Positions 10,171 through 41,025 are shown, counted from the first letter of the stretch. The stretch is 64,000 nucleotides of DNA from Candidatus Pacebacteria bacterium CG_4_9_14_0_2_um_filter_40_15 (GCA_002788675.1 PFRS01000005.1:199767-263766), one strand, 5' to 3'. Made by a program: numbers and translations. Notes: a model not told the origin generated them from the sequence alone.

Positions 10171-11583
10171 ATGCGAAAGTTCTATTGGTATTTAACTGCC
10201 TATATCAGAAAACATGGCCTTGTTGTTATTGGTTCTGTTGTTGCTGCGATACTCGTCTTTTCATTCACCATTCCAACAGTCGTAACTAAACTCGAAAAAA
10301 GCTCCTACAAATACGTAGGCGTAATTGGTGAGTATTCACTTACCACCTTACCACCATCAATAACATCAAAACTGAGTGCAGGTCTGACTCAGATTTCTGA
10401 AGATGGTACCACCGAGCCCGCTCTGGCTAAACGTTGGACCGTTGAGAACGACGGAATTACCTATCGCTTTGTCATTAAAGAAGGTATCTTCTGGCAAGAT
10501 GGAAAAGAACTTACCCCCGAAGATATCACCTACAATCTCCCCAATGTTGAGACCATAGTCACCCCAAACGATATTGTTTTCAAACTACCTGACCCCTACG
10601 CTCCATTCCCAACTGTGGTAACAGCGCCTCTGTTTAAAATTGAAAATGAAAAATACCATTTTTTCTTCACACGACCAAAACTTGTTGGCATTGGAAAATA
10701 CCACGTTGCTGACTACACCACTACGGGAAATCCCACAGCCTCACTCACGGAACTCGTTATTGATAGCCCTGATGAACGATTAGTGTATAGATTCTACCCA
10801 ACTGAAGACGCAGCTATAACTGCCTTTAAACACGGTAAGATTGATAAGATTGAAGACCTAAGTAAGCCATATGATATTTTTGACTGGGACACGTTGTCAG
10901 TCGACACAAACCTTGATCAAAATAACTATCTGGCAATCTTCTTTAATATTAGGGAGCCAATTTTTGACAAAAATGTCCGCCAAGCACTTTCATATGCACT
11001 AGCAAAACCTGATCCTGCAGTCAGAGCAATTGGACCGATTAGCGCAAACTCATGGGCGCATTTTTCTGGCGGTAAAACATACGAGAAGGATATTGATCGT
11101 GCGACCGAACGACTCCTTGATGCAATCCCTCCATTTCCACTTGAAATGAACCTCACAACAACAGCCCTCTATCAAGATGAGGCTGAGCAAATTAAAAAAG
11201 AATGGGAAGAATTTGGAGCTCATGCTTATGAGTCATGCAGAGCATTAGATGCTATAACTGACAAAGCAGAATGTGAAAAAGTGAAGATAGTTGTTACCAT
11301 AACTATTACAAACTTTCCTGACCTTTCAAATTTTCAACTCCTCCTTATTGGCCAAGAAAATCCTCCTGATCCAGACCAATATGCACTTTGGCACTCAGAT
11401 GAGGATACCAACTTTACTGGATACACCAATACTCGTATCGACAGCCTCTTAGAAAAGGGTCGTCAAACATTTGATATCAAGGAACGAACTGAAATTTATC
11501 AAGAGTTTCAACAGTTCTTTATTGAAGATGCTCCGGCAATTTTTCTGCGCTACCTCACACGGTATTCAGTCACAAGAAAATAA
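10171..11583 (+). CDS. Extracellular solute-binding protein, family 5 (Opp/Dpp-like), orphan with N-terminal membrane anchor
   Basis: ALAKRWTVENDGITYRFVIKEGIFWQDGKELTPEDITYNL matches the SBP_bac_5 N-lobe signature. No cognate permease or ATPase is adjacent. Confidence 0.55.
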   Translation: MRKFYWYLTAYIRKHGLVVIGSVVAAILVFSFTIPTVVTKLEKSSYKYVGVIGEYSLTTLPPSITSKLSAGLTQISEDGTTEPALAKRWTVENDGITYRFVIKEGIFWQDGKELTPEDITYNLPNVETIVTPNDIVFKLPDPYAPFPTVVTAPLFKIENEKYHFFFTRPKLVGIGKYHVADYTTTGNPTASLTELVIDSPDERLVYRFYPTEDAAITAFKHGKIDKIEDLSKPYDIFDWDTLSVDTNLDQNNYLAIFFNIREPIFDKNVRQALSYALAKPDPAVRAIGPISANSWAHFSGGKTYEKDIDRATERLLDAIPPFPLEMNLTTTALYQDEAEQIKKEWEEFGAHAYESCRALDAITDKAECEKVKIVVTITITNFPDLSNFQLLLIGQENPPDPDQYALWHSDEDTNFTGYTNTRIDSLLEKGRQTFDIKERTEIYQEFQQFFIEDAPAIFLRYLTRYSVTRK

Positions 11584-11606: not shown

Positions 11607-12632
11607 CTACAGTCTTCGGTATTTTTTACGGAGTAATTCAAATAGATAGGTTGCCCAATACTTCCAAGAAAGCGGAATATCCTGAGCAACTAAATAGGGT
11701 ACTTCGTCTCCACCAAAGCCTCGCTTGAACAGTGAAACCCCTGCAAAACGGTGTTCTGTTTCCTCTTTTGGGGCAATCCCCCAGAAGTTGTAACGACTAC
11801 ATCCACGTGCCTTTGCTTCAGCAATTGCTCTCCACTGACAAGCATAACTCCCGGGTAATTTTGCATTTCCCTCAGTTGAAACACCATAGTGGTACACTGC
11901 TTCACCGTTATAAAAAATGATAAATGCAGATGCTAATAATTCGTGTTGGTCAGAATAAGAATGCACGAGGGCAACTTGATCCGCAGCAACAAATACGTCA
12001 AACTGTGCTTCTAGAAATTCGTAGGAAAAGGGAATAAAGCCTTGTCTCTCTGCAACTTTTTTCTCCTCCTCATAAAACGCAAGTATATCTTTGGAATCTG
12101 TCGAAATTGTTGTTGTGATACCAAGTTTCTCAGACTTTCTAATTGAGGAACGGGTGTTCTTACGCATAGCAGCAAGAAGTTCTTCATCGGAAAGTGACAA
12201 ATCGAGCTGTAACGTGAGATCAGCTGTTACATGCATTGGTGCAACTAATGCTTTAATCGAAGTCAGCAGTTTTGGTGAAACTTTTTCACCAATAACTTGT
12301 GGTCTAAATCTAATAAAGACACAACCTTGATTAGTCGCTGTTTTGTAGATCTCAGCAAATAGACGTTCAACGAGCGAACTACTTTTCCAATCAACCAAAG
12401 GACCACCTGCAATAGCCATGTAGGTTCCTCTCTTCGCCGTTTCTATGATCATGCTTACTTGAGCAATAACAACGTTTTGGGAAATCGCTTGAAGACGTAA
12501 AACTTTTTTACCTATCCGTTCATTAAAAACACCCCAGTTATATGACTGAAGGAAATTAGCTTCAGGAAATTGTGCGATGCCAGATTCCCATTCTGTTTGG
12601 GTCGGCGCCCAATTAAAATCTATGCTCGTCAT
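11607..12632 (-). CDS. FemAB-family aminoacyl-tRNA-dependent peptidoglycan peptide-bridge transferase (FemX-like)
   Basis: 341 aa. The N-terminus FPEANFLQSYNWGVFNERIGKKV and the overall length/composition are typical of the FemABX (GNAT-like tandem) family. Moderate support. Confidence 0.55.
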   Translation of the reverse strand: MTSIDFNWAPTQTEWESGIAQFPEANFLQSYNWGVFNERIGKKVLRLQAISQNVVIAQVSMIIETAKRGTYMAIAGGPLVDWKSSSLVERLFAEIYKTATNQGCVFIRFRPQVIGEKVSPKLLTSIKALVAPMHVTADLTLQLDLSLSDEELLAAMRKNTRSSIRKSEKLGITTTISTDSKDILAFYEEEKKVAERQGFIPFSYEFLEAQFDVFVAADQVALVHSYSDQHELLASAFIIFYNGEAVYHYGVSTEGNAKLPGSYACQWRAIAEAKARGCSRYNFWGIAPKEETEHRFAGVSLFKRGFGGDEVPYLVAQDIPLSWKYWATYLFELLRKKYRRL

Positions 12633-13882
12633 ACATGTGCTGCCTTAATACTTGCAATAATTCTCTCGGCATCTCCACTTTCGATATTTAAATGCGTTGG
12701 TAAAGTAATAATGTGCGCTGCAAGTTTTTCCGCATTTGCTGCTGAACCGTGTGTGTACATTGAATTACACTTAAGCGTGCTGCAATCAACTGCTTTTCTA
12801 TACCATCGATCTGAAATAAATATGTTTTTGCGTTTAAGCATTTTAGCAATTGTATCTGGATTACGTACGAGTATTGGATAGCGGAGTAATGATCCACTCA
12901 TTAGTTCATCTTCTGACAGAGTAGCTGCTGAGCCGCCAAAAGCTTTGTGATATATCTGAGCAATCTCTTCCCGGTGAGCTAACTGAGTATCCACATGTTC
13001 AAGTCGATATACAATTAATGGTACAAAAGAATGTGGTAAAAGTGATGCTTTTGTTGTAGCAACAAACAATGGAGACTGGATTAAGCCTATTTTTTTTCCA
13101 ACAAAAGCCAAAAATTTTCCCAGTGTTAGCACGCTAAATCCCCAACTAAATGTAGTGCGAATAATCCAAGTCAATACAGGATACAAATGCTCTCTAATAA
13201 TTGCGCTTTGTCCAGCAGAGACTTGTAACGTAGCGTACCACTGTGCAACGTGTTTTTTTTGCTCGTGCGTGTAGGTCCTAACACAACAAGCACCTCCAGT
13301 CACGGCATCGAGAATTTTATCTCTACCAAACGAAAAGATCGTTGCATCACCAATGGTACCAACGGGATCTCCTTTTTCGGTAACAGCCCCATATCCTTGA
13401 GCTAGATCTTCGATTAAAACCAGCTTTTGTTTCTTACACCATAGAGCAATTTTTTGTATGTCAGGAACTGAACCTAATGAATACTGAACGAGTACTGCTT
13501 TGACGGGAACAGCACTTGTCTTAAATGCAACTTGCACAGTTTCTAGACTAAGATTAGCAGAAGAGTCTGCAATATCTGCATACACAGGTGTAGCTCCAGT
13601 ACGCGAAATTCCTTCTTCGACAGCAAAACAACTAAATGCTTGGGTGATCACACCATCACCTCGACCAATTGAAAATGCTTTTAGCGCACACTCGATTGCA
13701 TCACGTCCTTTATAAAAAAAGTAAGTATCTCCTTTGAACGTACTGTCAAAATACACTTTTAGTTGCGAAAATTGCTGTGAGAGATAACTCTGACTCAGAC
13801 GTGCCTGAACAAGGCCTTGAAAACTAATCAGACTATCTGTAAAAGTGTAGTTTGATCCAAGACTACTAAAAATTGGCTTCAT
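12629..13882 (-). CDS. DegT/DnrJ/EryC1/StrS-family PLP-dependent aminotransferase (sugar aminotransferase-like)
   Basis: DGVITQAFSCFAVEEGISRTGATPVYADI; KAVLVQYSLGSVPDIQKIALWCKKQKLVLIEDLAQGYGA; GDATIFSFGRDKIL (lysine of the SF..K motif). Confidence 0.6.
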   Translation of the reverse strand: MKPIFSSLGSNYTFTDSLISFQGLVQARLSQSYLSQQFSQLKVYFDSTFKGDTYFFYKGRDAIECALKAFSIGRGDGVITQAFSCFAVEEGISRTGATPVYADIADSSANLSLETVQVAFKTSAVPVKAVLVQYSLGSVPDIQKIALWCKKQKLVLIEDLAQGYGAVTEKGDPVGTIGDATIFSFGRDKILDAVTGGACCVRTYTHEQKKHVAQWYATLQVSAGQSAIIREHLYPVLTWIIRTTFSWGFSVLTLGKFLAFVGKKIGLIQSPLFVATTKASLLPHSFVPLIVYRLEHVDTQLAHREEIAQIYHKAFGGSAATLSEDELMSGSLLRYPILVRNPDTIAKMLKRKNIFISDRWYRKAVDCSTLKCNSMYTHGSAANAEKLAAHIITLPTHLNIESGDAERIIASIKAAHV

Positions 13883-13912
13883 ATTGATTTCATGTTTCAG
13901 TGATGTACTACG

Positions 13913-15385
13913 TTATTCTTTTGTTTCTTGCAAAGAATTTTGTATCCACGCTGGCATACGACCCTCTACAAGAACTATACCACTCTGGTTTTTGCTCTGC
14001 AGGAGTGAAAGTATCTCAGCTTGATCTGTCTTCATTTTAGTTCCAAGAATTGATTGCATAGTTGTTTTACCAGTTTCACCTACATACCACACCTGATCCG
14101 CTACTGTATTTAGGCGTTCTGCCAAACGTTGATGTATTTCATCTGAAGAAGTTCCTAAATCCACAATTCCTGGTGTAATAACGACCTTTTGTTTTGCAGG
14201 TAGTGTTGCCAAAAGTTCAAGCGCTTCTGTAAATCCTTTTGGATTACTACTTCCTCCATCATCAAAAATAATTCTACCAGAGCTATGTGCGTTGGAGGTA
14301 ATAAAGCTTTCAGTGGGTTGAAATGATCTAACTGCCTGTACAAGCTCGCTTTCATCAAGATACAGAGCAGCCACAGTCCAAGCCAAAGCAATATTTTGTA
14401 TGTATTGTTTACCAATAATGCGCGTGTTGATGACTTGTGTTTTATACTTAAATGACAAGTGCCCAGCTTCTGTGATATGCACATCTGAAAAAAGATCATG
14501 CCAGTTGATGACAGTATGCATAACACTTTGTGAGCTCTGTCCCCTACGAGCAATTTCTTGTGTTTCTTCACTTGAACCATTACTAAAAACTTTTTCTCCA
14601 GGTTGCAGAGCTGCTACCAATTCTGCTTTTGCAGAAATAATGTTATCTTCAGATCCAAAGAGACCTAAATGTTGTGGTGCAAACCCAGTAATTATCGCCA
14701 AGTTAGGGTGAATATATTTTGTTATCCGAGCAATTTCTCCAGGTACATAGGCAGCATACTCTATAACGGCAAATTTTTGGTTTGTGTACCCTCTTAAAAT
14801 ACTTTTTACAATTGAAAATAGAGTGTTGTATGATTTTGGCGTAGCAAATACCGTACTGTTTTGTGAAAGTAGATGACTTAATAGTGCCTTAGTACTGGAT
14901 TTCCCATAACTGCCAGTGATCCCAATCACAATAGGTTTGTGTAACATCATAAGTCGTTGTGCTTTTAGAGCCGTAATTCTAACTACGATACTTGAAATTA
15001 CTGACGTTGGTGCTGAAGCGATCAGGATAATTGCTGGAGCGCCAATGTACAAGATGAGTATCGCACTCAAAACAGCAGAAATACTTGCTGGATTTTGAAA
15101 ATCTACAATCCTTAGAGCACCTAGTAAAATTGAGAGAATTAGTAAAAAAGCTAATACCATAACCACGATTATTCGACTGGTAAGTTTAGGCCGCTTACAC
15201 CCTGCTCGAGTTAGATCGGATCGTTGTGGGATCAATCGCAAAAGTTCTTGTCTTCCTTCTGAAGAGCGTAGAAAGAGGTGCAACCGATCTAATCGGTATT
15301 CTTTCTGTTGTAAAAAAGCAAACCAACGAAGATACCGCACACAAATCCCACTTGTTAACAGTATGAGTAAGAGAAGTGTCTTCAT
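13913..15385 (-). CDS. Mur ligase family protein (MurF-like) with atypical N-terminal ~150-aa multi-TM region
   Basis: P-loop IVIGITGSYGKSSTKALLSHLL. C-terminal IFDDGGSSNP resembles the MurF DDSYNANP motif. The N-terminus carries 3-4 hydrophobic helices instead of the usual soluble domain 1. Confidence 0.6.
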   Translation of the reverse strand: MKTLLLLILLTSGICVRYLRWFAFLQQKEYRLDRLHLFLRSSEGRQELLRLIPQRSDLTRAGCKRPKLTSRIIVVMVLAFLLILSILLGALRIVDFQNPASISAVLSAILILYIGAPAIILIASAPTSVISSIVVRITALKAQRLMMLHKPIVIGITGSYGKSSTKALLSHLLSQNSTVFATPKSYNTLFSIVKSILRGYTNQKFAVIEYAAYVPGEIARITKYIHPNLAIITGFAPQHLGLFGSEDNIISAKAELVAALQPGEKVFSNGSSEETQEIARRGQSSQSVMHTVINWHDLFSDVHITEAGHLSFKYKTQVINTRIIGKQYIQNIALAWTVAALYLDESELVQAVRSFQPTESFITSNAHSSGRIIFDDGGSSNPKGFTEALELLATLPAKQKVVITPGIVDLGTSSDEIHQRLAERLNTVADQVWYVGETGKTTMQSILGTKMKTDQAEILSLLQSKNQSGIVLVEGRMPAWIQNSLQETKE

Positions 15386-15394
15386 GAAAGATGG

Positions 15395-16102
15395 TTACTT
15401 TCCAGTAATAAATTCTGCAACACAATCTGCCGTTTGTTCCGGATGAGTAAACTGTGGAGCATGTCGAGCCGAGTTGATAGTACACACCTCTGCTGTTGGT
15501 AGCGCTGCTAAAAATACCTCTACATTTGCATATGGCGTGCTTGTATCAAGCACTCCCCAAACCAACTGCACCGGACAGGTAATGTTTGAAATATCATCTC
15601 TAATTTCATCTGCAGTTATTAACTGCATCGTTTTCTTCATAACTGGACTTGCTTGTTCATAGTCATGTTCTCGAGCAATCTTATATAAAAATGTGCGCAT
15701 TGCAGGTTGTGTAGAAAGTCGCTTACCAACTTTTGCTAGTACGAAGAATACATTTCGCTTTAGTGCAGCTTTAAATGAATGATCGCGTATCCCAGCACTG
15801 GCAATAAGCACCAATTTCGCAATTTTTTGTGGATGAAGCGCCGAGTACCTAACTGCTAATTGTCCACCAAATGAATGTCCAATAAGGATGCATGACTTCT
15901 TTTGGGATAACTCTTGGTCAAGCCATGTAACATAGTCAGAAAGTGACCAAGGCTTAGTAAGCTCAGAATCCATACCAGGAATAGATAAAAATGTAGATGA
16001 AATCCCCATATTTGCTAATAAGTCCATAAAAGGTTGCCATTTAGCCTTATTTTGCCCACTTATTGCCCAGCCATGCAATATAACTACTTCGAGTTTCTTC
16101 AT
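15395..16102 (-). CDS. Alpha/beta-hydrolase fold protein
   Basis: Nucleophile elbow GHSFGG and the HGW N-terminal strand. The start is probably MKKLEVVILHGW. Confidence 0.6.
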   Translation of the reverse strand: MKKLEVVILHGWAISGQNKAKWQPFMDLLANMGISSTFLSIPGMDSELTKPWSLSDYVTWLDQELSQKKSCILIGHSFGGQLAVRYSALHPQKIAKLVLIASAGIRDHSFKAALKRNVFFVLAKVGKRLSTQPAMRTFLYKIAREHDYEQASPVMKKTMQLITADEIRDDISNITCPVQLVWGVLDTSTPYANVEVFLAALPTAEVCTINSARHAPQFTHPEQTADCVAEFITGK

Positions 16103-16243
16103 ATATAGTGTATTGTAACAGGTGCTAATTAAAGATTGCCAATTCAAACTAGATCATTATACTAAGGAGAAGGCTTCTGTTGTGCCAGCGTTCATTTGCA
16201 AAACAACGATATACACTTTATTTGATTACACAGAAAGTACTGT

Positions 16244-17021: not shown

Positions 17022-18728
17022 ATGAAGAAAAAACGAGGATCGCATTCCAAACTTATTTTGGGAATTGTGTTAGTCCTTGTCTGCACCTTTGCTTGGATAC
17101 TTTTTAGTGCTTACTCAGCAAAACAGCTTATTGCTGCACTACGTGCACAAGATAGTGCGGCTGTGGCAAGCCACAGCCGCACCCTCAAACTTTCATCACA
17201 CACTCTTTCCATTCTGTCATTTCACAAACTCCCAACAATAGAAACTATTGATGGCATTTTGAGTATTGCCTCTAAAGCTCAACAAGCCACAGATGCAATC
17301 AAAGCAGTACAACAGTCTGCCAGTACCGAGTCGATTGACCTTACTGAGCTGTTATCGCTTGCTGTTTCTGTAGAAGACGACAGTATTCAAATTGAAAAAA
17401 ACCTACCAAACTGTAAGCTCTGTGCTCGAATTATTCCAGAAAATACTCAGAATGATGTCACGAGAGTTCTGCATACTACGCAACTCGCAGGAAATGTTGC
17501 GTCAAGTTTACAACATGGCACACATCGTTTTCTCATTCTCTTTCAAAATTCTGACGAACTACGAGCAACAGGGGGGTTCACCGGTTCTTATGCGGTCATT
17601 ACACTCATAGATGGTGTGATCCAACCTATTTCAATTGCAGATATTTATGATGCAGACGGTCAGTTTACGGGTGAGATTCCAGCCCCAAGCGGAGTGAAAG
17701 AATACTTAAGTTCAGACAGGGGACTGAGACTACCTGATGCTAACTGGGCCCCTAACTTCCCTACCAGCGCCAAACAAATCTTACAGTTTTTTGCATTAGG
17801 TGATCAAAATACATTTGATGGTGTGGTGGCAATAACAGATAGTTACTTTGAAGACCTATTAACTGTACTTGGACCAATTTGGCTACCTGATTATCAACTT
17901 ACCGTAACACCTGAAAACTTAACCTCGGTCCTAAGAAGTAATCGAGAAGACTTTTTTGCTGGTAGCATTCAGAAAAAACATCTCTTGGGACAGTTTCAGA
18001 ACCAAGTGCTCATAGCTGCTACCGATCCAGATGTTGATCCAACTGCAATACTCGCTTTGACGATCCAAAATATGCAAGCTAAAAATATTCAAGCATACTC
18101 ATCACTGGAACCACTCCAAGAGATTTTTTCAGCATTAGAGATCGATGGAAAAATGTTTACTCAGGAAGCAACCTCTTCGCTTGCCTTTGTTGAGTCCAAT
18201 GTCGGCATAAATAAAGCAAATAAACATATTGCTCGAGCCATTTCTTTGCAGAACTCAGGATCAACACTGACAGCACGTTACTTTATCGAGAACACAAACG
18301 AACCTCCGGGCAAAACACAACTACAAAACTTAGTTGATATGCCAGAAAAAGTCAGAACTGCCAGCGATGAAGCACAGCATCTTGCCTATGTTAACTACCA
18401 GCGTGTGGTATATCCAAGTTCATGGAAAATATCAAACATCGATATTCCAGGATCTGGCACACCCCAGCTACACTCAAACAATCAGTCACTTTCACCTAGT
18501 ATTGAAGTAACAGAAACTGGATTTCTTGTAGTCGTTCCAGAAAAAAACTCAACTATTGTCACCATTACATTTGATACCCGTACACCTCTCACAAACAGTA
18601 CACTTGAACTCTATAAACAGCCAGGAACAGAGCCTGTCCCTGTATGGATTGAACCACTCGGGACGACCCCCTTCAGCACCAAACCGACTCTGATACTCGA
18701 GAAAAATCATGTTACAATCATGCCATGA
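17022..18728 (+). CDS. Hypothetical protein with N-terminal TM anchor and large extracytoplasmic domain
   Basis: 568 aa with a single N-terminal helix. It resembles the anchored secreted proteins common in Patescibacteria. No catalytic motif was recognised. Confidence 0.55.
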
Positions 18729-19842: not shown

Positions 19843-22800
19843 GTGACCGAACGTACTACCGATACCACTGTTCAGACACCTGTTCAACTCTCAGAAACAT
19901 TTGAATCTGCAGAATCTCTTTCGCCGCTTGAATTGTATGAACAAAAACGCTTTGCTGACTTGTTTTCTGTGTTCCCAACACTTCCAGAGGCTGCAAAACA
20001 AACCACATTACAACTACTTGCTCAAAAAGAGACTGTTCGACTGCTTGCCACCTACTTTGACCTCCTTGAACTCGATGCTGCAAATCTGGAATATTTGTTT
20101 GGGAACTGTGTAACTTTTGAAACCTGTACGTATTTTTTTGAAAATCTTACCCAAACCACCTTCACCTATGATGAAATCATTGCAACGCTCTTAAAAGTTA
20201 ATACTCAATTAGTAATTCTTGCTTTTCATAACCCTACTGCATTAAGTGCAAAAACCATTGAACTTCTCTCACAAGAAGGACATGACTACTCACATACTTT
20301 TGATCGCCTCATTGATTCCTGTACTAATGATGGAAAAATCGCAATACTTACACATTGGTTAGCTACGTACGAGTACGATACATTAGAGTCATGTATTGAG
20401 AAAACAGTGCACATTCCTCGCCCCTTAGTTGACAAACTGCAATCAATTCTACCCATAGAAGATTTTTTGTTTCATGTTAGTCGTTACGAAAGTTTTGACC
20501 ATGCGTCAGTTTTTGCAAAACTTTCTAAAGCTAATAAACTCTATGAACTGTATTCGTGTGCTCGCTATTTCCCAGAATGTAGCGAGACATTTTATTCTGA
20601 ACAACTGACTGAACACCCTGAGCATGAGATACTTTTAGTTACAAACTTTTCAAATTTCAGACATGATTCAGTCTTAGCTGATATTGAGCAAAGTATCTCA
20701 GCAAACAATTCTAAACATTTTGATGCAGATCGAAAATTAAGAATTCTATTGAATGATCAAATCCCACCTTTTACTTCTGTTACAGATCAGGAAGAGCTCT
20801 TTACCCTTTTAGCAACCCCAAAAACTGTGAGTAGGTGCCTAGCAATTGCCCTATCTACAAAACATTTTAATCTGATTCCACAAAGTGAACTTTTGGTAAG
20901 AATTGCAGGAATTCAAAATGGATACAGTGCACTCTACGATCATATAACAAATCCTTCATATGAATCAGGTATTCATTCAATACCTAATTCACTCTTTCAG
21001 AAATTGTTACTATTCGGTGGCCAAGACAGCTATACTCTCTTTAACAAAACAATTTTAAGTAAAATCGATAATTGGGATCAAAAAATGACTGCACAATTTT
21101 TTGAAGCTCAAAATCTAACTGAATATATATCTTACAAGATGTACTATTTTACAGAGGTAGAGAGCGATTTCTTTATTCGTAATTTTCCAGAAACTGAATT
21201 AGCTTCTGCAGTATATCGACATATACTTTGGGCAAAAAAAGTCTTCACAAAGGACGAGGTCTTCTTTTATCTAAAAAAACACGAAGATTACTCATTTCAT
21301 CAAATGTTGACCTTTGGAAATGAATCCCTCAAAACGTACATAGGAGAGACTGCAACCGATACAGAGTTGAGAGATGCTTTTGATGTAACCACAAAAGAAG
21401 GAGAACACGCTTTTCTCTACTTCAAAAGTAAGTATGTAGTACAGTCAGAACAACTGACTGTTAGTGATCGCATTGAAATTATTTTGGCAGAAGTTCAAAA
21501 CAAAGGCACCCTGCTTTTTGAAATACTCTATAATCAACCAGATCAACTAACCTATACAGACTTACAAGATGTTCTTAAAGTTTATCCAAACCTGTTTACA
21601 TTCAACCAATTTAGTAGATTTATTCATTGCCTTAAATGGGAAACATTCCCAACATCTTTTTTTCAAAAGGTACTAGCTCAAGCAAGTAGTGATAAAAAAT
21701 TTGAAGAAATCATTAGTTGTTTGCCCTGGATTCTCACCCATCTTTCTCCAGTTGTTCGAGAGTCTTTAACAACTGAAATATCAGAAAGCATTGCTGCATG
21801 CGAGCAAAAAGATATTTTTAATATGGTGGAATACTATCTCTCAATATCACGAATTGATGTGGCAGTTTTTATTGTTTCAGAGTTTGCGAAAATACAAGAG
21901 AGCCAAGATTTTTTTCAGCTACTCAGACTCCAAGTGGGAACTGAAAAAATTTCTAAAATAATGCAAAAGCTACTTGAAGAAGAAAATTTTGAGCAAGCAC
22001 ATATACTGCAAAAAAAGAGTAATATCTTCACTCTTGATGATTCGCATCTTTCACTCCCTTCAGAAACCCCTACTGAAAATTCAAAAGATACACTTTCCAC
22101 AATTAAGCGAGATGTAGAAACTATCGATCTTTTTAAAGATTTTGGCCTCTTTTATGCACATAAGTTTTTAGAGTATGAATTAGCACAATTGCATAACCAA
22201 CTTACTTTTCCAAGAACAATTGATCATAATTTTTTGGTTACTCAGCCACAAGAATACAGCTCAACAATACATAGGGCGAGTCTCGATCATATCGAAAAAT
22301 TTTTGGAAAATCAGGCAGAAGCACATACTCAAAAAGTATTACATACCCTGACACAACAACTTGTTGTAGCAACTGATTTTCATACATTCTCACAAGATAA
22401 CTTGCGCAATACAAAAGATGCCTACCTCATGGTGCCTCAACTACCCCAACTCTTACATACTAAATCTGATCTAGTACTAGCATTACAAAAACACATTAAA
22501 GTCTATGAAAAAATTGACAGAAAAGATTGGATGATGATTGCGATGGCTGCATATAGACTCGTCCTCCCAAATGCAAAAGAAAATGCTTCATTTTTACTTG
22601 ACCTTATTACAGATCTTGAACATGGGTCTGGATTTATTTTTTCTAGAGGGTACTACGAAAAATTCACTCTCAGTGACAACGAATACTCTCATAACCAATA
22701 TCGTGCCTTTCTGAGCTTCAAATCATCATGTACTTCCTTTACTGATTGGATTTCACACCTAAGATCTCACAACTATGTCCCGGAACCCCAACTAAAAGAC

Positions 22801-22869
22801 CTAGAAAGTATTTATAAAGCAATCCAACATCTTAAAACCGCCCCAACGCGCGCAAAAGGCTATGAATAA
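19843..22869 (+). CDS. Large hypothetical cytoplasmic protein (1008 aa), no recognisable domains
   Basis: Uninterrupted 3-kb ORF, aromatic/Leu-rich, with no TM. The only N-terminal start is GTG at 19843, with no SD and TATACT 11 nt upstream. The start is uncertain. Confidence 0.55.
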   Translation: MTERTTDTTVQTPVQLSETFESAESLSPLELYEQKRFADLFSVFPTLPEAAKQTTLQLLAQKETVRLLATYFDLLELDAANLEYLFGNCVTFETCTYFFENLTQTTFTYDEIIATLLKVNTQLVILAFHNPTALSAKTIELLSQEGHDYSHTFDRLIDSCTNDGKIAILTHWLATYEYDTLESCIEKTVHIPRPLVDKLQSILPIEDFLFHVSRYESFDHASVFAKLSKANKLYELYSCARYFPECSETFYSEQLTEHPEHEILLVTNFSNFRHDSVLADIEQSISANNSKHFDADRKLRILLNDQIPPFTSVTDQEELFTLLATPKTVSRCLAIALSTKHFNLIPQSELLVRIAGIQNGYSALYDHITNPSYESGIHSIPNSLFQKLLLFGGQDSYTLFNKTILSKIDNWDQKMTAQFFEAQNLTEYISYKMYYFTEVESDFFIRNFPETELASAVYRHILWAKKVFTKDEVFFYLKKHEDYSFHQMLTFGNESLKTYIGETATDTELRDAFDVTTKEGEHAFLYFKSKYVVQSEQLTVSDRIEIILAEVQNKGTLLFEILYNQPDQLTYTDLQDVLKVYPNLFTFNQFSRFIHCLKWETFPTSFFQKVLAQASSDKKFEEIISCLPWILTHLSPVVRESLTTEISESIAACEQKDIFNMVEYYLSISRIDVAVFIVSEFAKIQESQDFFQLLRLQVGTEKISKIMQKLLEEENFEQAHILQKKSNIFTLDDSHLSLPSETPTENSKDTLSTIKRDVETIDLFKDFGLFYAHKFLEYELAQLHNQLTFPRTIDHNFLVTQPQEYSSTIHRASLDHIEKFLENQAEAHTQKVLHTLTQQLVVATDFHTFSQDNLRNTKDAYLMVPQLPQLLHTKSDLVLALQKHIKVYEKIDRKDWMMIAMAAYRLVLPNAKENASFLLDLITDLEHGSGFIFSRGYYEKFTLSDNEYSHNQYRAFLSFKSSCTSFTDWISHLRSHNYVPEPQLKDLESIYKAIQHLKTAPTRAKGYE

Positions 22870-23639: not shown

Positions 23640-24809
23640 ATGATAGTTTTTAATTCTGTATACCGCACCTTCGATCCAGATGACTCTGGTTTAAAGGATA
23701 TTTCATTTACCATTGACCCTGGTGAACTTGTTATGATCACAGGCCACTCTGGTAGTGGAAAAACTACCATCATGCGCCTGCTTACTAAAGAGTACACTCC
23801 AAATAAAGGTGAGATTAGTTTTGATGAACAAAATCTTTCCAAGATTAAAAAAAGCAAACTCCATGAACACAGACGAAAAATTGGCGTCGTCTTCCAGGAT
23901 TATCGCCTAATTCCAGAAATGAATGTCTGGGAAAATATTGCACTGCCTTTAGCCATTACCGGTAAAAAAGATACTGAAATTGCCGAGCGCGTAACAGATT
24001 TACTTAATCTGATTCAACTTCCGGAGAAAGCTCATCTCTTCCCAAGTCAGCTTTCAGGTGGAGAAGCACAACGTATTAGTATCGCTCGAGCACTTGCAAA
24101 TGCTCCTAGAGTTATTTTTGCTGATGAACCAACGGGAAATCTCGATCAAGATACCTCACAATCCATTGCTCATTTACTCAAGCAAATAAATGAATTGGGA
24201 ACAACATTGATATTTGCTACCCATGACCCCAAAGTTCTCTCGATATTTTCTGATAAACGTCATATTAACTTAAAAAATGGCACCGTCGAGTTTGATACCG
24301 GTGAAAAGAAACCAAATTCAGCTAAAAAAGACTCAAAAAATGAAGATAAAGATACTGATAAGAAAGCTTCAGAAAAAGAAGGATCCACTAATAAAAAATC
24401 AGCAAATATCACAAAAAGCTCATCTAAAGAAAGTTCTGTGAAGAGTGAAACTACTACTGGCACTTCAGAACCTGAATCAAAGGATACATCAGAAAAAGAT
24501 ACAAAAGAAGAAAAATCAGAGAAACCAGCAAAAAAATCTGGTGGCTTGTTATCTCGCTGGTTTGGCTCAAAAGAATCAAAAACTGCAACTGAAAAAACTA
24601 ATGCAGATGGAAATGATCTCGATATCGAGATGAGATTAGTCGAGACAGATTCAAAAACTGAAGACACTAAAAATGATGACAAGACATCTGTCACAATGAA
24701 GGATGAGAAAACTTCCAAAAAGATAAATACTGCAAATAAATCTGATATTGATGCAGAAAAATCTTCAAATGATACATCAAAACACAAATCATCCAAGAGC
24801 AAAAAGTAA
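23640..24809 (+). CDS. ftsE: Cell-division ABC ATPase FtsE with ~165-aa low-complexity C-terminal extension
   Basis: Walker A GHSGSGKTT, signature LSGGEAQRISIARAL and Walker B IFADEPTGNLD lie within the first ~220 aa. The remainder is a K/S/E/D/T-rich disordered tail. Confidence 0.85.
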   Translation: MIVFNSVYRTFDPDDSGLKDISFTIDPGELVMITGHSGSGKTTIMRLLTKEYTPNKGEISFDEQNLSKIKKSKLHEHRRKIGVVFQDYRLIPEMNVWENIALPLAITGKKDTEIAERVTDLLNLIQLPEKAHLFPSQLSGGEAQRISIARALANAPRVIFADEPTGNLDQDTSQSIAHLLKQINELGTTLIFATHDPKVLSIFSDKRHINLKNGTVEFDTGEKKPNSAKKDSKNEDKDTDKKASEKEGSTNKKSANITKSSSKESSVKSETTTGTSEPESKDTSEKDTKEEKSEKPAKKSGGLLSRWFGSKESKTATEKTNADGNDLDIEMRLVETDSKTEDTKNDDKTSVTMKDEKTSKKINTANKSDIDAEKSSNDTSKHKSSKSKK

Positions 24810-24812
24810 CCT

Positions 24813-25682
24813 ATGAACTCACTCACCGCCGCCCTCACCACAATCCGCAGATCTCCCTACCAGGCTTTGGTCTCGATTCTTATGGTCAGTGTTACCTTTT
24901 TTGTTGCTTATATCTTTAGTTTTTTCATTGCTGGCGCTAACGAAGTACTGAGTTACTTCGAGACGCAGCCACAAATTATTGCCTTTTTCGAACTTGAAAC
25001 CCCGAGTAGCAGCATTGATTCGCTCAAAAAAAAGATGGAGAGTCAGTGGTATGTCGATTCAGTCAAAATTGTTACCCAAGATGAAGCTCTGAAAATTTAT
25101 CAAGAAGACAATAAAACTGATCCACTCCTTCTGGAGTTAGTCACAGCTGACATTCTGCCAGCTAGTATCGAAGTAGCAGCTAAAGATCTGAATTCCCTTG
25201 TTCTTGTAAAAGATGAACTCGAAAAAGCTCCAGATATTGAAGATGTCGTTTATCAAGAAGATATTGTAAAAACACTTGGTTCTTGGACACAATCTGTCCG
25301 TATGATTGGCGCTGGTGCCATTCTCACGTTAGCAACCATTTCATTCTTAATAATCATGATTGTGGTTGCCATGAAGGCAGCACATAAACGAGGTACCATT
25401 AAAATAATGCGCTATATAGGCGCAACGTCTTGGTATATTAAGCTTCCATTTCTCCTTGAAGGCGTGCTCTATGGCATGATTGGTTCACTTCTTGGTTTTG
25501 GCGCCACTATGGCCGCTCTTATGTATGCTTCCCCTTGGGTTTCTGAATTTTTAGGTGAAGTTCACATATTCCCTATACCGCCCGAATTCTTAGCTGCCCA
25601 AGTAGGAGCTGGCACAGTAGCTGGAATGCTTCTTGGCGGCTTTGCTGGTCTCTTGGCAGTACAAAGATTAATAAAGCAGTAG
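24813..25682 (+). CDS. ftsX: Cell-division permease FtsX
   Basis: 4-TM FtsX topology with a periplasmic loop. It follows ftsE by 3 nt. Confidence 0.8.
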   Translation: MNSLTAALTTIRRSPYQALVSILMVSVTFFVAYIFSFFIAGANEVLSYFETQPQIIAFFELETPSSSIDSLKKKMESQWYVDSVKIVTQDEALKIYQEDNKTDPLLLELVTADILPASIEVAAKDLNSLVLVKDELEKAPDIEDVVYQEDIVKTLGSWTQSVRMIGAGAILTLATISFLIIMIVVAMKAAHKRGTIKIMRYIGATSWYIKLPFLLEGVLYGMIGSLLGFGATMAALMYASPWVSEFLGEVHIFPIPPEFLAAQVGAGTVAGMLLGGFAGLLAVQRLIKQ

Positions 25683-25684
25683 CT

Positions 25685-26971
25685 ATGCGAACTCACTCCA
25701 CTGGCTTTTTCCACACTTGGCCGTCACTTTTGCGGAAGTTTTCTATTGGAATTTTTGCGGCACTCTGTATTTTTTCCACACTGAGTATTACTCCAACTTC
25801 TGTTTCTGCAGAGGCATGTGACGAAAACTGTAACAAAGATGCAGATGATAGCGAATACCTCCAATGTATTTCTCGTAAGAAGGAATGTCTAGAAAAAGAA
25901 CTTTCAGTCATTTCAGATCAAAAGAACACCCTCAACAACACTATTAGCCTGATTAGTGGCAACATTAGAGTTCAAGAGATACAAATTTCTCAGACAACGG
26001 CAGAAATCCGTGCACTCGAAAAAGAAATCACCGAACTCGACCAACGCATCGGTGGCCTCAACATTTCCCTTGATCGCCTCACCTCACTGTTAGTCAATAG
26101 AATTCGCAGCCAATATAAGCGCAATCGCGTCTCACCACTAGCACTCTTTACCAAGGCAGATACTTTCAACTCATTCCTTACACAGTATAAATACATTGGT
26201 CATGCTGGTGAACAAACCGCCAAGGCCATGAGCCTCGCCGAGTCCCAACGACTACTCTATGACGATCAAAAAACACTCAAAGAGGAAAAACAAACCGAGT
26301 TCCAGGCAAAAACTAACCAATTGCAAAGTCAGAAAACCGAACTCGACCGACAAAAATCAGAACAGACCGCTATCTTGGGAGTTACCAAAAATAATGAGGC
26401 AAAGTATCAAGAACTCCTGGCTGAGGCCCAAAAAGAACTCCAACAAATTGCCGACGCTGCCAACGTAGTTATCCGTGAAGGCAATGGAGTGCCCGTTAAA
26501 AAGGGTGAAACCATTGGTACTATGGGAAATTCAGGATTCTCGACCGGAGCCCACCTGCACTTTGGCGTGTATCGTTACAGTGCAGATCAGTTTGGTCAAA
26601 CCTCAAGTTGGGGGTGGTACTATAGTAACTACGTAAATCCAATTGAAAAACTCGGACCTACATCTGTTACTTGGGATACAGGCTGTGGCCATGATCCCAG
26701 TGGCAATCAGACATCAGGAAACGGCAGCTGGCAGTGGCCAATGACATCATCACGCATTACCCAAAACTATGGTTCAAATACCTGTTACAACTGGATGTAC
26801 GGCAATAAGCCACATCCTGCAATCGATATTGTTGGCATGGGTTCTAAATCTGTCACCGCCGTTGAGGATGGCGAAGCCTACTTCTGCAGGAACTGCCTCA
26901 ATGATGGAGGTAATGGTGTTTTCGTTTTTCATAGTGACAACTACATGACTTTGTACTGGCATCTTCAGTAA
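25685..26971 (+). CDS. Peptidase M23 family murein hydrolase/activator (EnvC-like) with coiled coil and Cys-rich C-terminal domain
   Basis: Signal peptide and a long coiled coil. M23 motif GTMGNSGFSTGAHLHFGVY (HxH). There is an extra ~130-aa C-terminal domain with 6 Cys. Confidence 0.8.
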   Translation: MRTHSTGFFHTWPSLLRKFSIGIFAALCIFSTLSITPTSVSAEACDENCNKDADDSEYLQCISRKKECLEKELSVISDQKNTLNNTISLISGNIRVQEIQISQTTAEIRALEKEITELDQRIGGLNISLDRLTSLLVNRIRSQYKRNRVSPLALFTKADTFNSFLTQYKYIGHAGEQTAKAMSLAESQRLLYDDQKTLKEEKQTEFQAKTNQLQSQKTELDRQKSEQTAILGVTKNNEAKYQELLAEAQKELQQIADAANVVIREGNGVPVKKGETIGTMGNSGFSTGAHLHFGVYRYSADQFGQTSSWGWYYSNYVNPIEKLGPTSVTWDTGCGHDPSGNQTSGNGSWQWPMTSSRITQNYGSNTCYNWMYGNKPHPAIDIVGMGSKSVTAVEDGEAYFCRNCLNDGGNGVFVFHSDNYMTLYWHLQ

Positions 26972-31530: not shown

Positions 31531-31588
31531 ATATCTATAATAGCAGTTTTTAGCCAAGTTGTCTCATATTTAATATAATCCTATAATA

Positions 31589-31617
31589 TTGACGTATTAC
31601 TGTTTCCGTGTTATAAT
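31589..31617 (+). promoter_or_regulatory. Sigma70 promoter TTGACG-17-TATAAT preceded by ATAATCCTATAATA element
   Basis: The 19-nt block ATAATCCTATAATATTGAC is identical to the one at 32468-32487. Confidence 0.55.
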
Positions 31618-31722
31618 TACCTCAAGTTAAGTAATTTTGCTTGACTGTATATCCTGAAATACTAGCGCATGCAGACGCTGCGTAATGTATTTTAGGACTG
31701 CACATTCACATAGGAGAAAAAA

Positions 31723-32412: not shown

Positions 32413-32426
32413 TTCTCCTCTGTGTT

Positions 32427-32468
32427 AGCCCCCGGCCTCTGAAAAGAGATCCCGGGGGCTTTCTATTT
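32427..32468 (+). terminator. Rho-independent terminator (AGCCCCCGG...CCGGGGGCT + TTTCTATTT)
   Basis: 9-bp GC-rich stem. Confidence 0.65.
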
Positions 32469-32482
32469 ATAATCCTATAATA

Positions 32483-32511
32483 TTGACAAATCACCATTTA
32501 AATGCTATACT
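32483..32511 (+). promoter_or_regulatory. Sigma70 promoter TTGACA-17-TATACT preceded by ATAATCCTATAATA element; near-leaderless transcript for GT2 gene
   Basis: The -10 ends 10 nt before ATG 32522. The track ORF start at 32483 is the TTG of the -35 itself. Confidence 0.55.
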
Positions 32512-32521
32512 TGTATCTAGT

Positions 32522-40995: not shown

Positions 40996-41025
40996 CCGCT
41001 ATACTACTAAGGTAACAAAGGATCA

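What the first reader, a model, noticed from the sequence alone, without database searches (positions are those of the whole stretch)
11607..16102. Peptidoglycan-precursor tailoring cluster with a membrane-anchored Mur-ligase
On the minus strand, FemAB-like transferase, DegT-like aminotransferase, Mur-ligase and alpha/beta hydrolase are packed with 4-nt overlaps or tiny gaps, which is operon-like. The Mur-ligase (13913-15385) has a canonical GITGSYGKSSTK P-loop and a MurF-like DDGGSSNP C-terminal motif. Its first ~150 aa are 3-4 hydrophobic helices rather than the soluble N-domain. A membrane-tethered MurF/MurE-family ligase is unusual. It suggests ligation on a lipid-linked or membrane-proximal substrate (compare the MurT/CapB-like variants). 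With a DegT aminotransferase (amino-sugar synthesis) and FemX (tRNA-dependent amino acid addition), the cluster could build a non-canonical stem peptide or modified sugar.
Basis: partly seen in the sequence, partly recalled or inferred. Interest (0 to 1): 0.6.

Follow-up and report, generated by a model that had tools for sequence, protein, structure and literature searches.

The report
Membrane-anchored MurF cell-wall operon
The flagged ligase is most likely this tiny bacterium's ordinary cell-wall enzyme MurF, but in a widespread form I found described nowhere: it is anchored in the membrane, always paired with a serine hydrolase, and in these bacteria followed by two unusual enzymes where the D-Ala-D-Ala ligase gene normally sits.

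Summary
Four tightly packed minus-strand genes encode an alpha/beta hydrolase, a Mur ligase with three N-terminal membrane helices, a DegT-like PLP enzyme and a FemX-like transferase.

The 'tailoring ligase' reading is only partly right. The ligase is MurF-like by profile, sequence and predicted fold. Relatives sit in the murF slot of complete cell-division/wall (dcw) clusters, with no other murF-like gene there. It is therefore most likely the housekeeping MurF.

Its membrane N-terminal domain is not an annotation artefact. It carries invariant cytoplasmic motifs (QQKEYRxDR, KRPxxTxR). It is homologous (HHalign 93.8%) to the N-terminus of 520-560 aa MurFs in MAGs labelled Clostridia, Chloroflexota, Bdellovibrionota, Melainabacteria and Poribacteria.

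In both samples a hydrolase with an invariant Ser-Asp-His triad lies immediately upstream (65/72 and 65/66 loci).

Downstream lies either ddl (51/71 genome loci; non-CPR lineages and Saccharibacteria) or the DegT-like plus FemX-like pair (10/71; 54/54 in the window's lineage), never both. No ddl appears in 922 kb around 80 such loci.

My literature searches found no description of this MurF form. The roles of the hydrolase and the DegT-like enzyme remain unknown.

The parts
15395..16102 (-). Alpha/beta-fold serine hydrolase, first gene of the operon. The ORF extends to a TTG at 16147, but homologs start at MKKLEVV, the ATG at 16102. Catalytic triad: Ser77 (15872-15874), Asp186 (15545-15547), His214 (15461-15463).
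   Evidence: Pfam Abhydrolase_1 E 7.6e-17. The HGW motif, GHSxGG, Asp186 and His214 are invariant in 62 homologs that sit upstream of membrane MurFs. It lies upstream of the ligase in 65/72 genome loci and 65/66 metagenome loci.
13913..15385 (-). Membrane-anchored MurF-type ligase (490 aa).
   Evidence: TIGR01143 murF E 3.9e-49, 167.7 bits (cutoff 288.6), matching profile positions 70-405 only. The top PDB sequence hits are all MurF. Foldseek top hits are MurF 4qf5, 4cvm and 3zl8. There are 408 full-length homologs.
15002..15385 (-). N-terminal membrane module of the ligase (aa 1-128). TM1 is 15311-15382, TM2 15110-15178 and TM3 15011-15091. The cytoplasmic motif QQKEYRLDR is at 15284-15310 and KRPKLTSR at 15173-15196.
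   Evidence: Hydropathy. AlphaFold2 helices. Invariant residues R17, R20, W21, Q26-R34, K64-P66, T69 and R71. A profile of the module hits only 188 of 1.84e9 representative proteins, always at the N-terminus; all 10 distant hits checked are Mur ligases. HHalign to non-CPR N-termini: 93.8% probability, E 1.8e-7.
14888..14923 (-). ATP-binding P-loop GITGSYGKSSTK.
   Evidence: Translation. G158, S159, G161 and K162 are invariant.
14240..14263 (-). C-domain motif DDGGSSNP, at the position of the canonical MurF motif DDxYNANP.
   Evidence: Translation. This subfamily shows DDGG(T/S)SNP or NDGKT(T/S)NP, whereas other membrane MurFs keep DD(A/S)(Y/F)N(A/S)NP.
12629..13882 (-). DegT/DnrJ/EryC1-family PLP enzyme (417 aa). 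The PLP lysine is K189 (13316-13318).
   Evidence: Pfam PF01041 E 1.2e-39. It is below every NCBIfam equivalog cutoff (best PseC, 86.8 vs 423.5 bits). E158, D159, S184 and K189 are invariant and F185 and G186 are conserved in at least 90% of CPR copies. It sits immediately downstream of the ligase in 54/54 loci.
11607..12632 (-). FemX-like (FemAB family) aminoacyl-tRNA-dependent transferase (341 aa), last gene of the operon.
   Evidence: Pfam FemAB E 1.1e-32. Best NCBIfam hit is FemX (UDP-MurNAc-pentapeptide-lysine N6-alanyltransferase), E 1e-15 but 57.9 bits against a cutoff of 500. PDB hits are FemA 1lrz and FemX 3gkr, 4ii9 and 1ne9. It follows DegT in 39/44 loci.

Best explanation
The four genes are a relocated piece of the cell-division/cell-wall (dcw) cluster.

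The 490-aa ligase is the organism's housekeeping MurF, the enzyme that adds the terminal dipeptide (normally D-Ala-D-Ala) to UDP-MurNAc-tripeptide. It belongs to a broad clade in which the canonical soluble N-terminal, UDP-binding domain has been replaced by a polytopic membrane domain. That domain has 3 helices here and 4-5 predicted hydrophobic segments in most other phyla.

The positive-inside rule predicts an N-out, C-in topology. Two conserved basic motifs (QxxxYxxxR and K-K/R-P/L-x-x-T-x-R) and the ATP-dependent catalytic domains then all face the cytoplasm.

Inferred: the motifs take over part of the substrate-holding role of the lost domain, and the anchor places the last soluble step next to MraY.

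A Ser-Asp-His alpha/beta hydrolase is an obligatory co-transcribed partner of this MurF form. Its reaction is unknown.

The FemX-like enzyme most likely adds a branch amino acid from aminoacyl-tRNA to the MurF product, as Weissella FemX does. The DegT-like PLP enzyme is an integral but unassigned step. Together these two occupy the position that ddl occupies next to membrane MurF in other lineages.

Shown: the architecture, its homology across lineages and the gene order. Inferred: the activity, the topology and the roles of the partner genes.
For: MurF identity:
- TIGR01143 scores E 3.9e-49, against MurD 1e-14 and MurE/MurC about 1e-9.
- The PDB sequence search returns seven MurF sequences first.
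- The AlphaFold2 model (pLDDT 88.6, pTM 0.82) matches MurF structures best.
- The P-loop and the EYAAY, QHLGLFGS and AKAEL motifs are conserved.

Housekeeping role, from relatives in complete dcw clusters:
- L035/L053 (Poribacteria): mraW-ftsL-ftsI-murE-hydrolase-membrane murF-ddl-mraY-murD-ftsW-murG.
- L048 (Paceibacterota): mraZ...murE-murC-murA-hydrolase-murF-degT-femX-mraY-murD-ftsW-murG-ftsQ-ftsA.
- L159, carrying the window's QQKEYRxDR motif (the pattern used to find it): murA-murE-murC-murB-murD-murI-hydrolase-murF-degT-femX-mraY-ftsW-murG-ftsA-ftsZ.
- None of these clusters holds another murF-like gene.

The N-terminal domain is real and ancient.

Hydrolase coupling and its invariant triad.

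ddl and DegT+FemX alternate at the same position: 51 versus 10 of 71 loci, never both.
Against: No genome could be scanned whole, so a second, canonical murF elsewhere in the window's genome is not excluded. The 64-kb window has none.

The protein fails the curated MurF cutoff (167.7 vs 288.6 bits) and lacks domain 1.

In the window's subfamily the C-domain motif that lines the incoming-substrate site in other Mur ligases is altered (DDGGSSNP instead of DDxYNANP). The added substrate may therefore differ.

No ddl was found near any DegT-type locus, so the source of D-Ala-D-Ala is unexplained.

The membrane topology is predicted, not measured.
Confidence: 0.75

Rival explanations
1. The membrane domain is a substrate-recognition device. 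On this view the ligase adds the dipeptide to a lipid-linked intermediate (undecaprenyl-PP-MurNAc-tripeptide, lipid I or II) rather than to the UDP-linked precursor.
For: The UDP-binding domain 1 is missing; the profile match starts at MurF position 70. The invariant arginine/lysine-rich juxtamembrane motifs could bind a pyrophosphate. The gene lies just upstream of mraY in several clusters, separated from it only by ddl or by degT-femX.
Against: Gene order keeps murF before mraY, as in the canonical pathway. At least one relative (L016) keeps the motifs but has no segment that passes the hydropathy threshold used here. This suggests the motifs matter more than lipid embedding. No lipid-binding fold was identified, and the AlphaFold model coordinates could not be inspected.
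Confidence: 0.1
2. The ligase is an accessory paralog, a tailoring enzyme, working beside a normal soluble MurF encoded elsewhere. With the DegT-like and FemX-like enzymes it would build a non-canonical peptide or a modified sugar on a wall polymer.
For: It falls below the MurF curated cutoff. Its C-domain motif is altered to DDGGSSNP. Its operon partners are unusual.
Against: Complete dcw clusters in relatives contain this gene as the only murF-like gene, in the murF slot. Membrane MurFs of other lineages keep the canonical DDxYNxNP motif and are followed by ddl. CPR (Candidate Phyla Radiation) genomes of about 1 Mb rarely keep redundant paralogs; this last point is my inference.
Confidence: 0.08
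3. In most CPR classes the DegT-like PLP enzyme and the FemX-like transferase together replace alanine racemase and Ddl. They would supply MurF's incoming dipeptide, or a different C-terminal unit, by a PLP- plus aminoacyl-tRNA-dependent route. This rival concerns the two partner genes only and is compatible with the best explanation for the ligase.
For: ddl or DegT+FemX occupy the same position after membrane murF and are mutually exclusive. No ddl was found in 922 kb around 80 loci of the window's type, nor in the 64-kb window. L159 encodes every cytoplasmic step except Ddl and Alr, with exactly these two genes between murF and mraY. Fusions of MurF with alanine racemase, and of MurC with Ddl, exist as curated NCBIfam families (PRK11930 and PRK14573). 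FemAB-fold 'aminoacyl-tRNA-dependent peptide synthases' have solved structures (9wqw).
Against: tRNA carries L-amino acids, whereas DD-transpeptidases need D-Ala at position 4; the clusters do encode an FtsI-type PBP. DegT-family enzymes act on keto-sugars or cyclitols in all the solved cases matched. ddl could simply be encoded elsewhere. The default FemX role, adding a branch amino acid to the MurF product, explains the adjacency equally well.
Confidence: 0.15

Closest known systems
Canonical MurF (UDP-MurNAc-tripeptide:D-Ala-D-Ala ligase; TIGR01143; structures 1GG4, 4CVK, 4QF5, 3ZL8, 2AM1)
   Same: The central ATPase domain and the C-terminal domain. The P-loop, the Mg-binding Glu (EYAAY), the His (QHLGLFGS) and the Lys of AKAEL. 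MurF gives the best profile, sequence and fold matches. Relatives hold the murE-murF-mraY position.
   Different: Domain 1 (about 60-70 aa, UDP-binding) is replaced by a 3-5-helix membrane domain with its own conserved motifs. The protein scores below the curated cutoff. There is an obligatory hydrolase neighbour. In the window's subfamily DDxYNANP has become DDGGSSNP.
   Same: They belong to the Mur ligase superfamily. MurT acts on a lipid-linked substrate.
   Different: MurT is only a distant match (E 1e-7 in NCBIfam, 3e-8 in PDB). There is no DUF1727 domain and no GatD partner. CapB did not appear among the hits.
VanT serine racemase
   Same: It is a cytoplasmic-type enzyme of peptidoglycan precursor supply that carries an N-terminal membrane domain (PMC4542195 abstract).
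   Different: It has an unrelated catalytic fold (PLP racemase). I made no sequence comparison with its membrane domain. It is a resistance enzyme, not a housekeeping one.
FemX of Weissella viridescens (1NE9, 4II9; NF047883)
   Same: It has a similar length (335-343 aa against 341 aa here). The alignment spans residues 14-293, and FemX is the best NCBIfam hit. FemX uses the soluble MurF product UDP-MurNAc-pentapeptide, which fits the murF-adjacent position.
   Different: It scores only 57.9 bits against a cutoff of 500. The amino acid it transfers is unknown. Seryl-tRNA synthetase lies just upstream of the operon in three CPR loci, a hint towards serine.
DegT/DnrJ/EryC1 sugar aminotransferases (e.g. 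ArnB-like 4LC3, PseC)
   Same: The fold-type I PLP domain, with the PLP lysine and the Asp of the ED(x)A motif conserved.
   Different: It falls far below every equivalog cutoff. It has an extra, moderately hydrophobic insert of about 40 aa with an invariant GK. Its genomic context is peptidoglycan precursor genes, not a sugar-nucleotide pathway.

Membership tests
MurF (TIGR01143) | Mur ligase central domain with a GxxGK(T/S) P-loop | tested here: met
   PF08245 E 1.7e-23; GITGSYGKSSTK at aa 155-166.
MurF (TIGR01143) | MurF scores better than all other Mur ligase families | tested here: met
   murF E 3.9e-49, against murD 1.3e-14, murE 2.6e-9 and murC 4.6e-9. The seven best PDB sequences are MurF. 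The Foldseek top 10 are MurF.
MurF (TIGR01143) | Whole-protein score reaches the curated cutoff | tested here: not met
   167.7 bits against 288.6. Membrane MurFs of other lineages score 208-254 bits.
MurF (TIGR01143) | Canonical N-terminal domain 1 (UDP-binding) | tested here: not met
   The profile match starts at model position 70. Residues 1-128 are three membrane helices plus a helical loop.
MurF (TIGR01143) | C-terminal Mur_ligase_C domain | tested here: inconclusive
   PF02875 scores 24.8 bits, below its gathering score of 28.4. The MurF profile and the structural alignments nevertheless run through the C-domain.
MurF (TIGR01143) | C-domain motif DDxYNANP | tested here: not met
   DDGGSSNP in the window. 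The motif is kept as DD(A/S)(Y/F)N(A/S)NP in most other membrane MurFs.
MurF (TIGR01143) | Position between murE and mraY in the dcw cluster, as the only murF there | tested here: met
   Met in relatives L035, L053, L048, L013 and L159. In the window itself the operon sits apart from dcw genes.
MurF (TIGR01143) | ATP-dependent ligation of D-Ala-D-Ala to UDP-MurNAc-tripeptide | not testable with these tools
   This needs an enzyme assay or complementation.
MurT/GatD | MurT-type C-terminal DUF1727 domain and a GatD glutaminase partner | tested here: not met
   MurT families score only E 1.2e-7 and 9.6e-4 over aa 153-255. No GatD-like gene lies in the operon.
FemABX (PF02388) | FemAB-fold domain above the Pfam threshold | tested here: met
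   113.8 bits against a cutoff of 24.
FemX (NF047883 equivalog) | Equivalog-level score | tested here: not met
   57.9 bits against 500.
DegT/DnrJ/EryC1 (PF01041) | Family domain and a conserved PLP lysine | tested here: met
   137 bits against 19.8. K189 aligns to the PLP-lysine position of the FSFHANK motif of 4LC3 and is invariant.
Alpha/beta hydrolase (PF00561) | Nucleophile elbow GxSxG plus the acid and His of the triad | tested here: met
   GHSFGG (Ser77), Asp186 and His214 are invariant in 62 sequences.

The most novel reading that the evidence does not exclude
Two linked claims.

(1) In many bacterial lineages the last 'soluble' step of peptidoglycan precursor synthesis is carried out at the membrane. 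It would be done by a MurF that has swapped its UDP-binding domain for a conserved polytopic domain and that works with an obligatory serine hydrolase partner of unknown chemistry.

(2) In most CPR classes the ATP-grasp ligase Ddl has been displaced in situ by a PLP enzyme plus a tRNA-dependent Fem transferase. These organisms would then make the C-terminal part of the stem peptide by a route not known in any bacterium.

The probability given is for claim (2), the more radical one. The gene-level facts behind claim (1) are already shown; its biochemical reading is not.
Probability: 0.15. Interest if true: 0.85.

Novelty: new variant of a known kind. Interest (0 to 1): 0.6.

Why it matters
MurF is a textbook soluble enzyme and an antibiotic target. 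Here a form of it lacks the UDP-binding domain, sits in the membrane and never travels without a serine hydrolase. This form appears to be the only MurF in the complete dcw clusters examined, from MAGs labelled Poribacteria and Patescibacteria. It is also abundant in gut Clostridia, Chloroflexota, Bdellovibrionota and Melainabacteria.

If this is correct, three things follow:
- Models of substrate recognition would need revision.
- Hand-over of the precursor to MraY would need to be reconsidered.
- Curated annotation rules would need changing, because the TIGR01143 cutoff misses all seven examples scored here.

The replacement of ddl by DegT+FemX in CPR bacteria gives a concrete, testable entry point into how these ultra-small symbionts build their walls. 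It also raises the question of whether D-cycloserine- or vancomycin-type chemistry applies to them.

Tried and rejected
1. Start-codon artefact. Rejected: the N-terminus is conserved at protein level with invariant motifs and is homologous across lineages.

2. A second Mur ligase in the window. None was found by phmmer or by Pfam on 37 ORFs.

3. A whole-genome check for a canonical murF or ddl in the same genomes. This is not possible with the tools, which give only +/-10 kb around a hit.

4. The ligase-FemAB 'fusion' P0204 as Rosetta-stone evidence. Discounted: it lies on a single 2.9-kb contig, with the FemAB C-terminal part as a separate ORF, so it is probably a frameshift.

5. DegT-like protein as a membrane protein. 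Rejected: the highest 19-residue hydropathy is 1.38.

6. Promoter and terminator scan of the operon. Nothing exceeded the shuffled expectation.

7. AFDB fold search to find cultivated carriers. The library was unavailable.

8. Metagenome scan with the DegT alignment.

9. Literature. Eight full-text searches, plus term searches within two retrieved papers, found no description of a membrane-anchored MurF or of its hydrolase partner.

10. Apparent truncation of EF-G at the window end. It is only the window edge.
Full report
**1. What is in the window**

Between 11607 and 16147 four co-directional minus-strand ORFs are packed with a 9-nt gap, a 30-nt gap and a 4-nt overlap. In order of transcription they are:
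- An alpha/beta hydrolase (15395-16102 if the ATG that matches homolog N-termini is used). Pfam Abhydrolase_1, E 7.6e-17.
- A 490-aa Mur ligase (13913-15385). Mur_ligase_M scores E 1.7e-23. Mur_ligase_C scores 24.8 bits, just under its threshold.
- A DegT/DnrJ/EryC1-family PLP enzyme (12629-13882), E 1.2e-39.
- A FemAB-family protein (11607-12632), E 1.1e-32.

The ligase N-terminus has three hydrophobic segments, at about aa 1-25, 70-92 and 100-125.

The surrounding 64 kb is an ordinary small-genome chromosome stretch of about 40% GC. It holds recA, RNase Y, a family-5 solute-binding protein, a PPIase, a DUF4012 protein, prfB, ftsEX, an M23 peptidase, glycosyltransferases, ABC-2 transporters, the ribosomal protein operon, tuf and fusA. 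It contains no other Mur ligase.

**2. The ligase is MurF-like but lacks MurF's first domain**

NCBIfam ranks murF first: TIGR01143, E 3.9e-49, 167.7 bits. This is far ahead of murD (1e-14) and of murE, murC and MurT (1e-7 to 1e-9). The match covers only model positions 70-405, and the score is below the curated cutoff of 288.6.

A profile of 17 homologs finds seven MurF sequences first in the PDB (3zl8 at 7e-39, then 4cvk, 4ziy, 4qdi, 1gg4, 2am1 and 3zm5). MurD comes next at 1e-14 and MurT at 3e-8.

An AlphaFold2 model is confident, with mean pLDDT 88.6 and pTM 0.82. Its helices are at 2-27, 32-40, 42-49, 55-58, 70-92 and 99-149, followed by the two Mur ligase domains. By Foldseek it matches MurF structures best, with a TM-score of about 0.63-0.71 over about 366 columns.

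**3. The N-terminal module is a real, conserved domain**

The database holds 408 homologs. The best 120 are 457-518 aa long and cover 94-100% of the query. Where a source names the organism they come from Patescibacteria (Microgenomates, Pacebacteria, Woesebacteria); two carry a 'Pseudomonadales' label that is probably a mis-assignment. Sources call them MurF, 'Mur ligase family protein' or 'hypothetical protein'.

At 37-62% overall identity the N-terminus keeps invariant R17, R20, W21, Q26-Q27-K28-E29-Y30-R31-x-D33-R34, G44, K64-R65-P66, T69 and R71.

A profile of the module alone, run against 1.84 billion representative proteins, finds only 188 hits. Every listed match lies at the protein's N-terminus, mostly in proteins of about 470-550 aa. 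All ten distant hits checked are Mur ligases with the variant motif LWQxKEYRxDR, and several keep a near-canonical C-domain motif such as DDSYN(A/S)(N/T)P.

The loop between TM1 and TM2 carries 12 Lys/Arg, while the TM2-TM3 loop carries none. This is read from the sequence printed. The positive-inside rule therefore gives an N-out, C-in topology, with both motifs and the catalytic domains in the cytoplasm. This topology is an inference.

**4. The architecture is not confined to CPR bacteria**

A scan of one genome per GTDB species used only the P-loop pattern [IV]G[IV]TGS[YF]GK. It returned 80 loci.

Nearly all of them encode 520-560 aa ligases whose P-loop lies at about aa 180-200. The P-loop is preceded by 4-5 hydrophobic segments, and most have a canonical DD(A/S)(Y/F)N(A/S)NP motif. 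By record title they include:
- Clostridia (Acutalibacteraceae, Oscillospiraceae, Ruminococcaceae)
- Chloroflexota and Anaerolineae
- Bdellovibrionota
- Melainabacteria and Obscuribacterales
- Poribacteria
- Saccharibacteria and others

Their N-termini carry recognisable variants of both motifs, for example FYQIEEYxxRRF, LQQNSYFPSRY, FQQEEYxxxRF and LQLDGYKTGRY, followed by KKPLxxTxRxKR.

A profile-profile comparison of the CPR and non-CPR N-terminal alignments gives 93.8% probability and E 1.8e-7 over 145 columns. The non-CPR proteins have two extra helices inserted between the motifs, which preserves the topology.

One Clostridial member alone has 7687 relatives at E <= 1e-20 among the 8000 candidates scored.

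All six members from other lineages that I tested also fall below the TIGR01143 cutoff, at 208-254 bits.

**5. It is most likely the housekeeping MurF**

In two Poribacteria genomes the gene lies in a complete dcw cluster: mraW-ftsL-ftsI-murE-hydrolase-membrane murF-ddl-mraY-murD-ftsW-murG. Ten genes of L035, mraW through ftsW, were confirmed with Pfam; murG was assigned by sequence clustering.

In a Paceibacterota genome the order is mraZ-mraW-ftsL-ftsI-murE-murC-x-murA-hydrolase-murF-degT-femX-dgk-mraY-murD-ftsW-murG-ftsQ-ftsA.

A 215-kb metagenome contig carries the window's exact motif (L159). Its order is murA-murE-murC-murB-murD-murI-hydrolase-murF-degT-femX-mraY-ftsW-murG-(ftsQ)-ftsA-ftsZ.

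A Woesebacteria genome (L013) has hydrolase-murF-degT-femX-mraY-ftsW-murG-ftsQ-ftsA-ftsZ.

In each case this is the only murF-like gene in the cluster, and it sits where murF belongs. I could not scan whole genomes, so a second murF elsewhere is not formally excluded.

**6. An obligatory hydrolase partner**

A homolog of the window's hydrolase lies immediately upstream on the same strand. This holds in 65 of 72 genome loci with room for it and in 65 of 66 metagenome loci.

Across 62 sequences the HGW oxyanion motif, GHSxGG (Ser77), Asp186 and His214 are invariant. It is therefore very probably an active serine hydrolase or acyltransferase.

No curated family claims it. The best matches are generic (BioH, EstV, PcaD-like) and all fall below their cutoffs. 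Its reaction is unexplained. I regard this as the most interesting open point of the conserved two-gene module.

**7. ddl versus DegT+FemX**

Immediately downstream of membrane murF the genome sample has ddl in 51 of 71 loci with room. These are non-CPR lineages and Saccharibacteria. It has the DegT-like plus FemX-like pair in 10 of 71, all CPR by their N-terminal motif and/or record title. It never has both.

In 80 metagenome loci found by the QQKEYRxDR motif (922 kb in total):
- DegT follows the ligase in 54/54 loci with room.
- FemX follows DegT in 39/44.
- A Ddl HMM built from the ddl copies found next to membrane murF (57 or fewer sequences) finds nothing.
- The same HMM also finds nothing in the 64-kb window.

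The DegT-like enzymes keep the PLP lysine (K189) and the Asp of the ED(x)A motif. They have a conserved insert with an invariant GK that is not hydrophobic enough to span a membrane.

The FemX-like protein is the short, Weissella-FemX-like form. Seryl-tRNA synthetase lies just upstream of the operon in three CPR loci.

The simplest reading is that FemX adds a branch residue to the MurF product and that the DegT-like enzyme performs an unassigned precursor step. A more radical reading is not excluded: the PLP enzyme and the tRNA-dependent transferase may together replace Alr and Ddl. Curated families of MurF fused to alanine racemase, and of MurC fused to Ddl, show that MurF is habitually linked to the suppliers of its substrate.

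Two points count against the radical reading. tRNAs carry L-amino acids, whereas the FtsI-type PBPs in these clusters need D-Ala-D-X donors. And ddl may simply lie elsewhere in the genome.

**8. Subfamily peculiarity**

In the window's lineage the C-domain motif is DDGG(T/S)SNP or NDGKT(T/S)NP rather than DDxYNxNP. From my own knowledge, the equivalent motif in MurD (NDSKATN, Thr321) contacts the incoming amino acid. If so, the specificity for the added unit may have shifted here. This is an inference.

**9. Literature**

Eight full-text searches and term searches within two retrieved papers found no description of a membrane-anchored MurF, of its N-terminal domain or of the hydrolase partner. 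The terms combined MurF or Mur ligase with transmembrane, membrane-anchored, Patescibacteria, CPR and dcw. A paper on a complete Microgenomates genome states only that peptidoglycan synthesis is 'essentially complete' (PMC7143001). VanT is a precedent for a membrane N-domain on a precursor-supply enzyme (PMC4542195). The library is incomplete, so absence of a description is not proof of novelty.

**10. Verdict**

The gene is most likely the ordinary MurF of this organism. It belongs to a widespread variant of MurF that I could not find described, and it is missed by curated thresholds. That variant has:
- a conserved membrane domain,
- an obligatory serine hydrolase partner,
- in most CPR classes, a PLP-enzyme/Fem-transferase pair in the place of ddl.

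I rate it a new variant of a known kind, of moderate to high interest.

Noticed in passing
window 10171-11583 (+): A family-5 solute-binding protein (SBP_bac_5, di/oligopeptide-binding type) with an N-terminal hydrophobic anchor lies convergent to the FemX-like gene. The adjacency is kept in L001, L003, L005 and L006. It is absent in relatives whose operon sits in the dcw cluster. From my own knowledge, E. coli DdpA (D-Ala-D-Ala) and MppA (murein tripeptide) are family-5 binding proteins, so this may be a lead on scavenging.
   Followed up: partly
window 19843-22869 (+) and 34150-37482 (+): Two very large ORFs (1008 and 1110 aa) have no Pfam match at all.
   Followed up: no
window 17022-18728 (+): A DUF4012 protein is conserved next to prfB in all five Microgenomates-type loci examined, with a cyclophilin PPIase on its other side in four of them.
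   Followed up: no
window 23640-26971 (+): ftsE, ftsX and an M23 peptidase lie in a row, which looks like an FtsEX-controlled wall hydrolase module.
   Followed up: no
window 29668-34127: A PMT_2-type (dolichyl-phosphate-mannose-like) glycosyltransferase sits next to two GT2 genes. A 229-aa ORF (31723-32412) has only a weak FAD_binding_4 hit (E 3.5e-4).
   Followed up: no
window 39395-43633 (+): Four paralogous ABC2_membrane_6 genes surround a single ABC ATPase.
   Followed up: no
L013:7952-9238 (+): In a Woesebacteria genome a divergent ATP-grasp protein (429 aa) lies directly upstream of hydrolase-murF. It has weak Dala_Dala_lig_C (E 0.016) and ATP-grasp_3 hits. It could be a Ddl-like ligase in that lineage. 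There is no homolog in the window.
   Followed up: partly
L159:2456-4714 (+): MurE is fused to a C-terminal NTP_transferase (sugar nucleotidyltransferase) domain, giving 753 aa, in a CPR dcw cluster.
   Followed up: no
L026:7999-9234, L077:6443-7744, L086:7550-8773: Seryl-tRNA synthetase lies just upstream of the hydrolase-murF-degT-femX operon in three CPR genomes. This hints that the Fem transferase uses Ser-tRNA.
   Followed up: partly
L016:9959-11329: One Patescibacteria MurF (457 aa) keeps the QQEEYxxDRF and K-x-V-W-T-P-K motifs but has no segment passing the hydropathy threshold. This suggests the motifs, not the anchor, are the constrained part.
   Followed up: no
L090 (P0204): An apparent membrane-MurF/FemAB fusion (649 aa) lies on a 2.9-kb contig, with the rest of FemAB as a separate ORF. 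It is probably a frameshift artefact. There is no DegT gene between the two there.
   Followed up: yes
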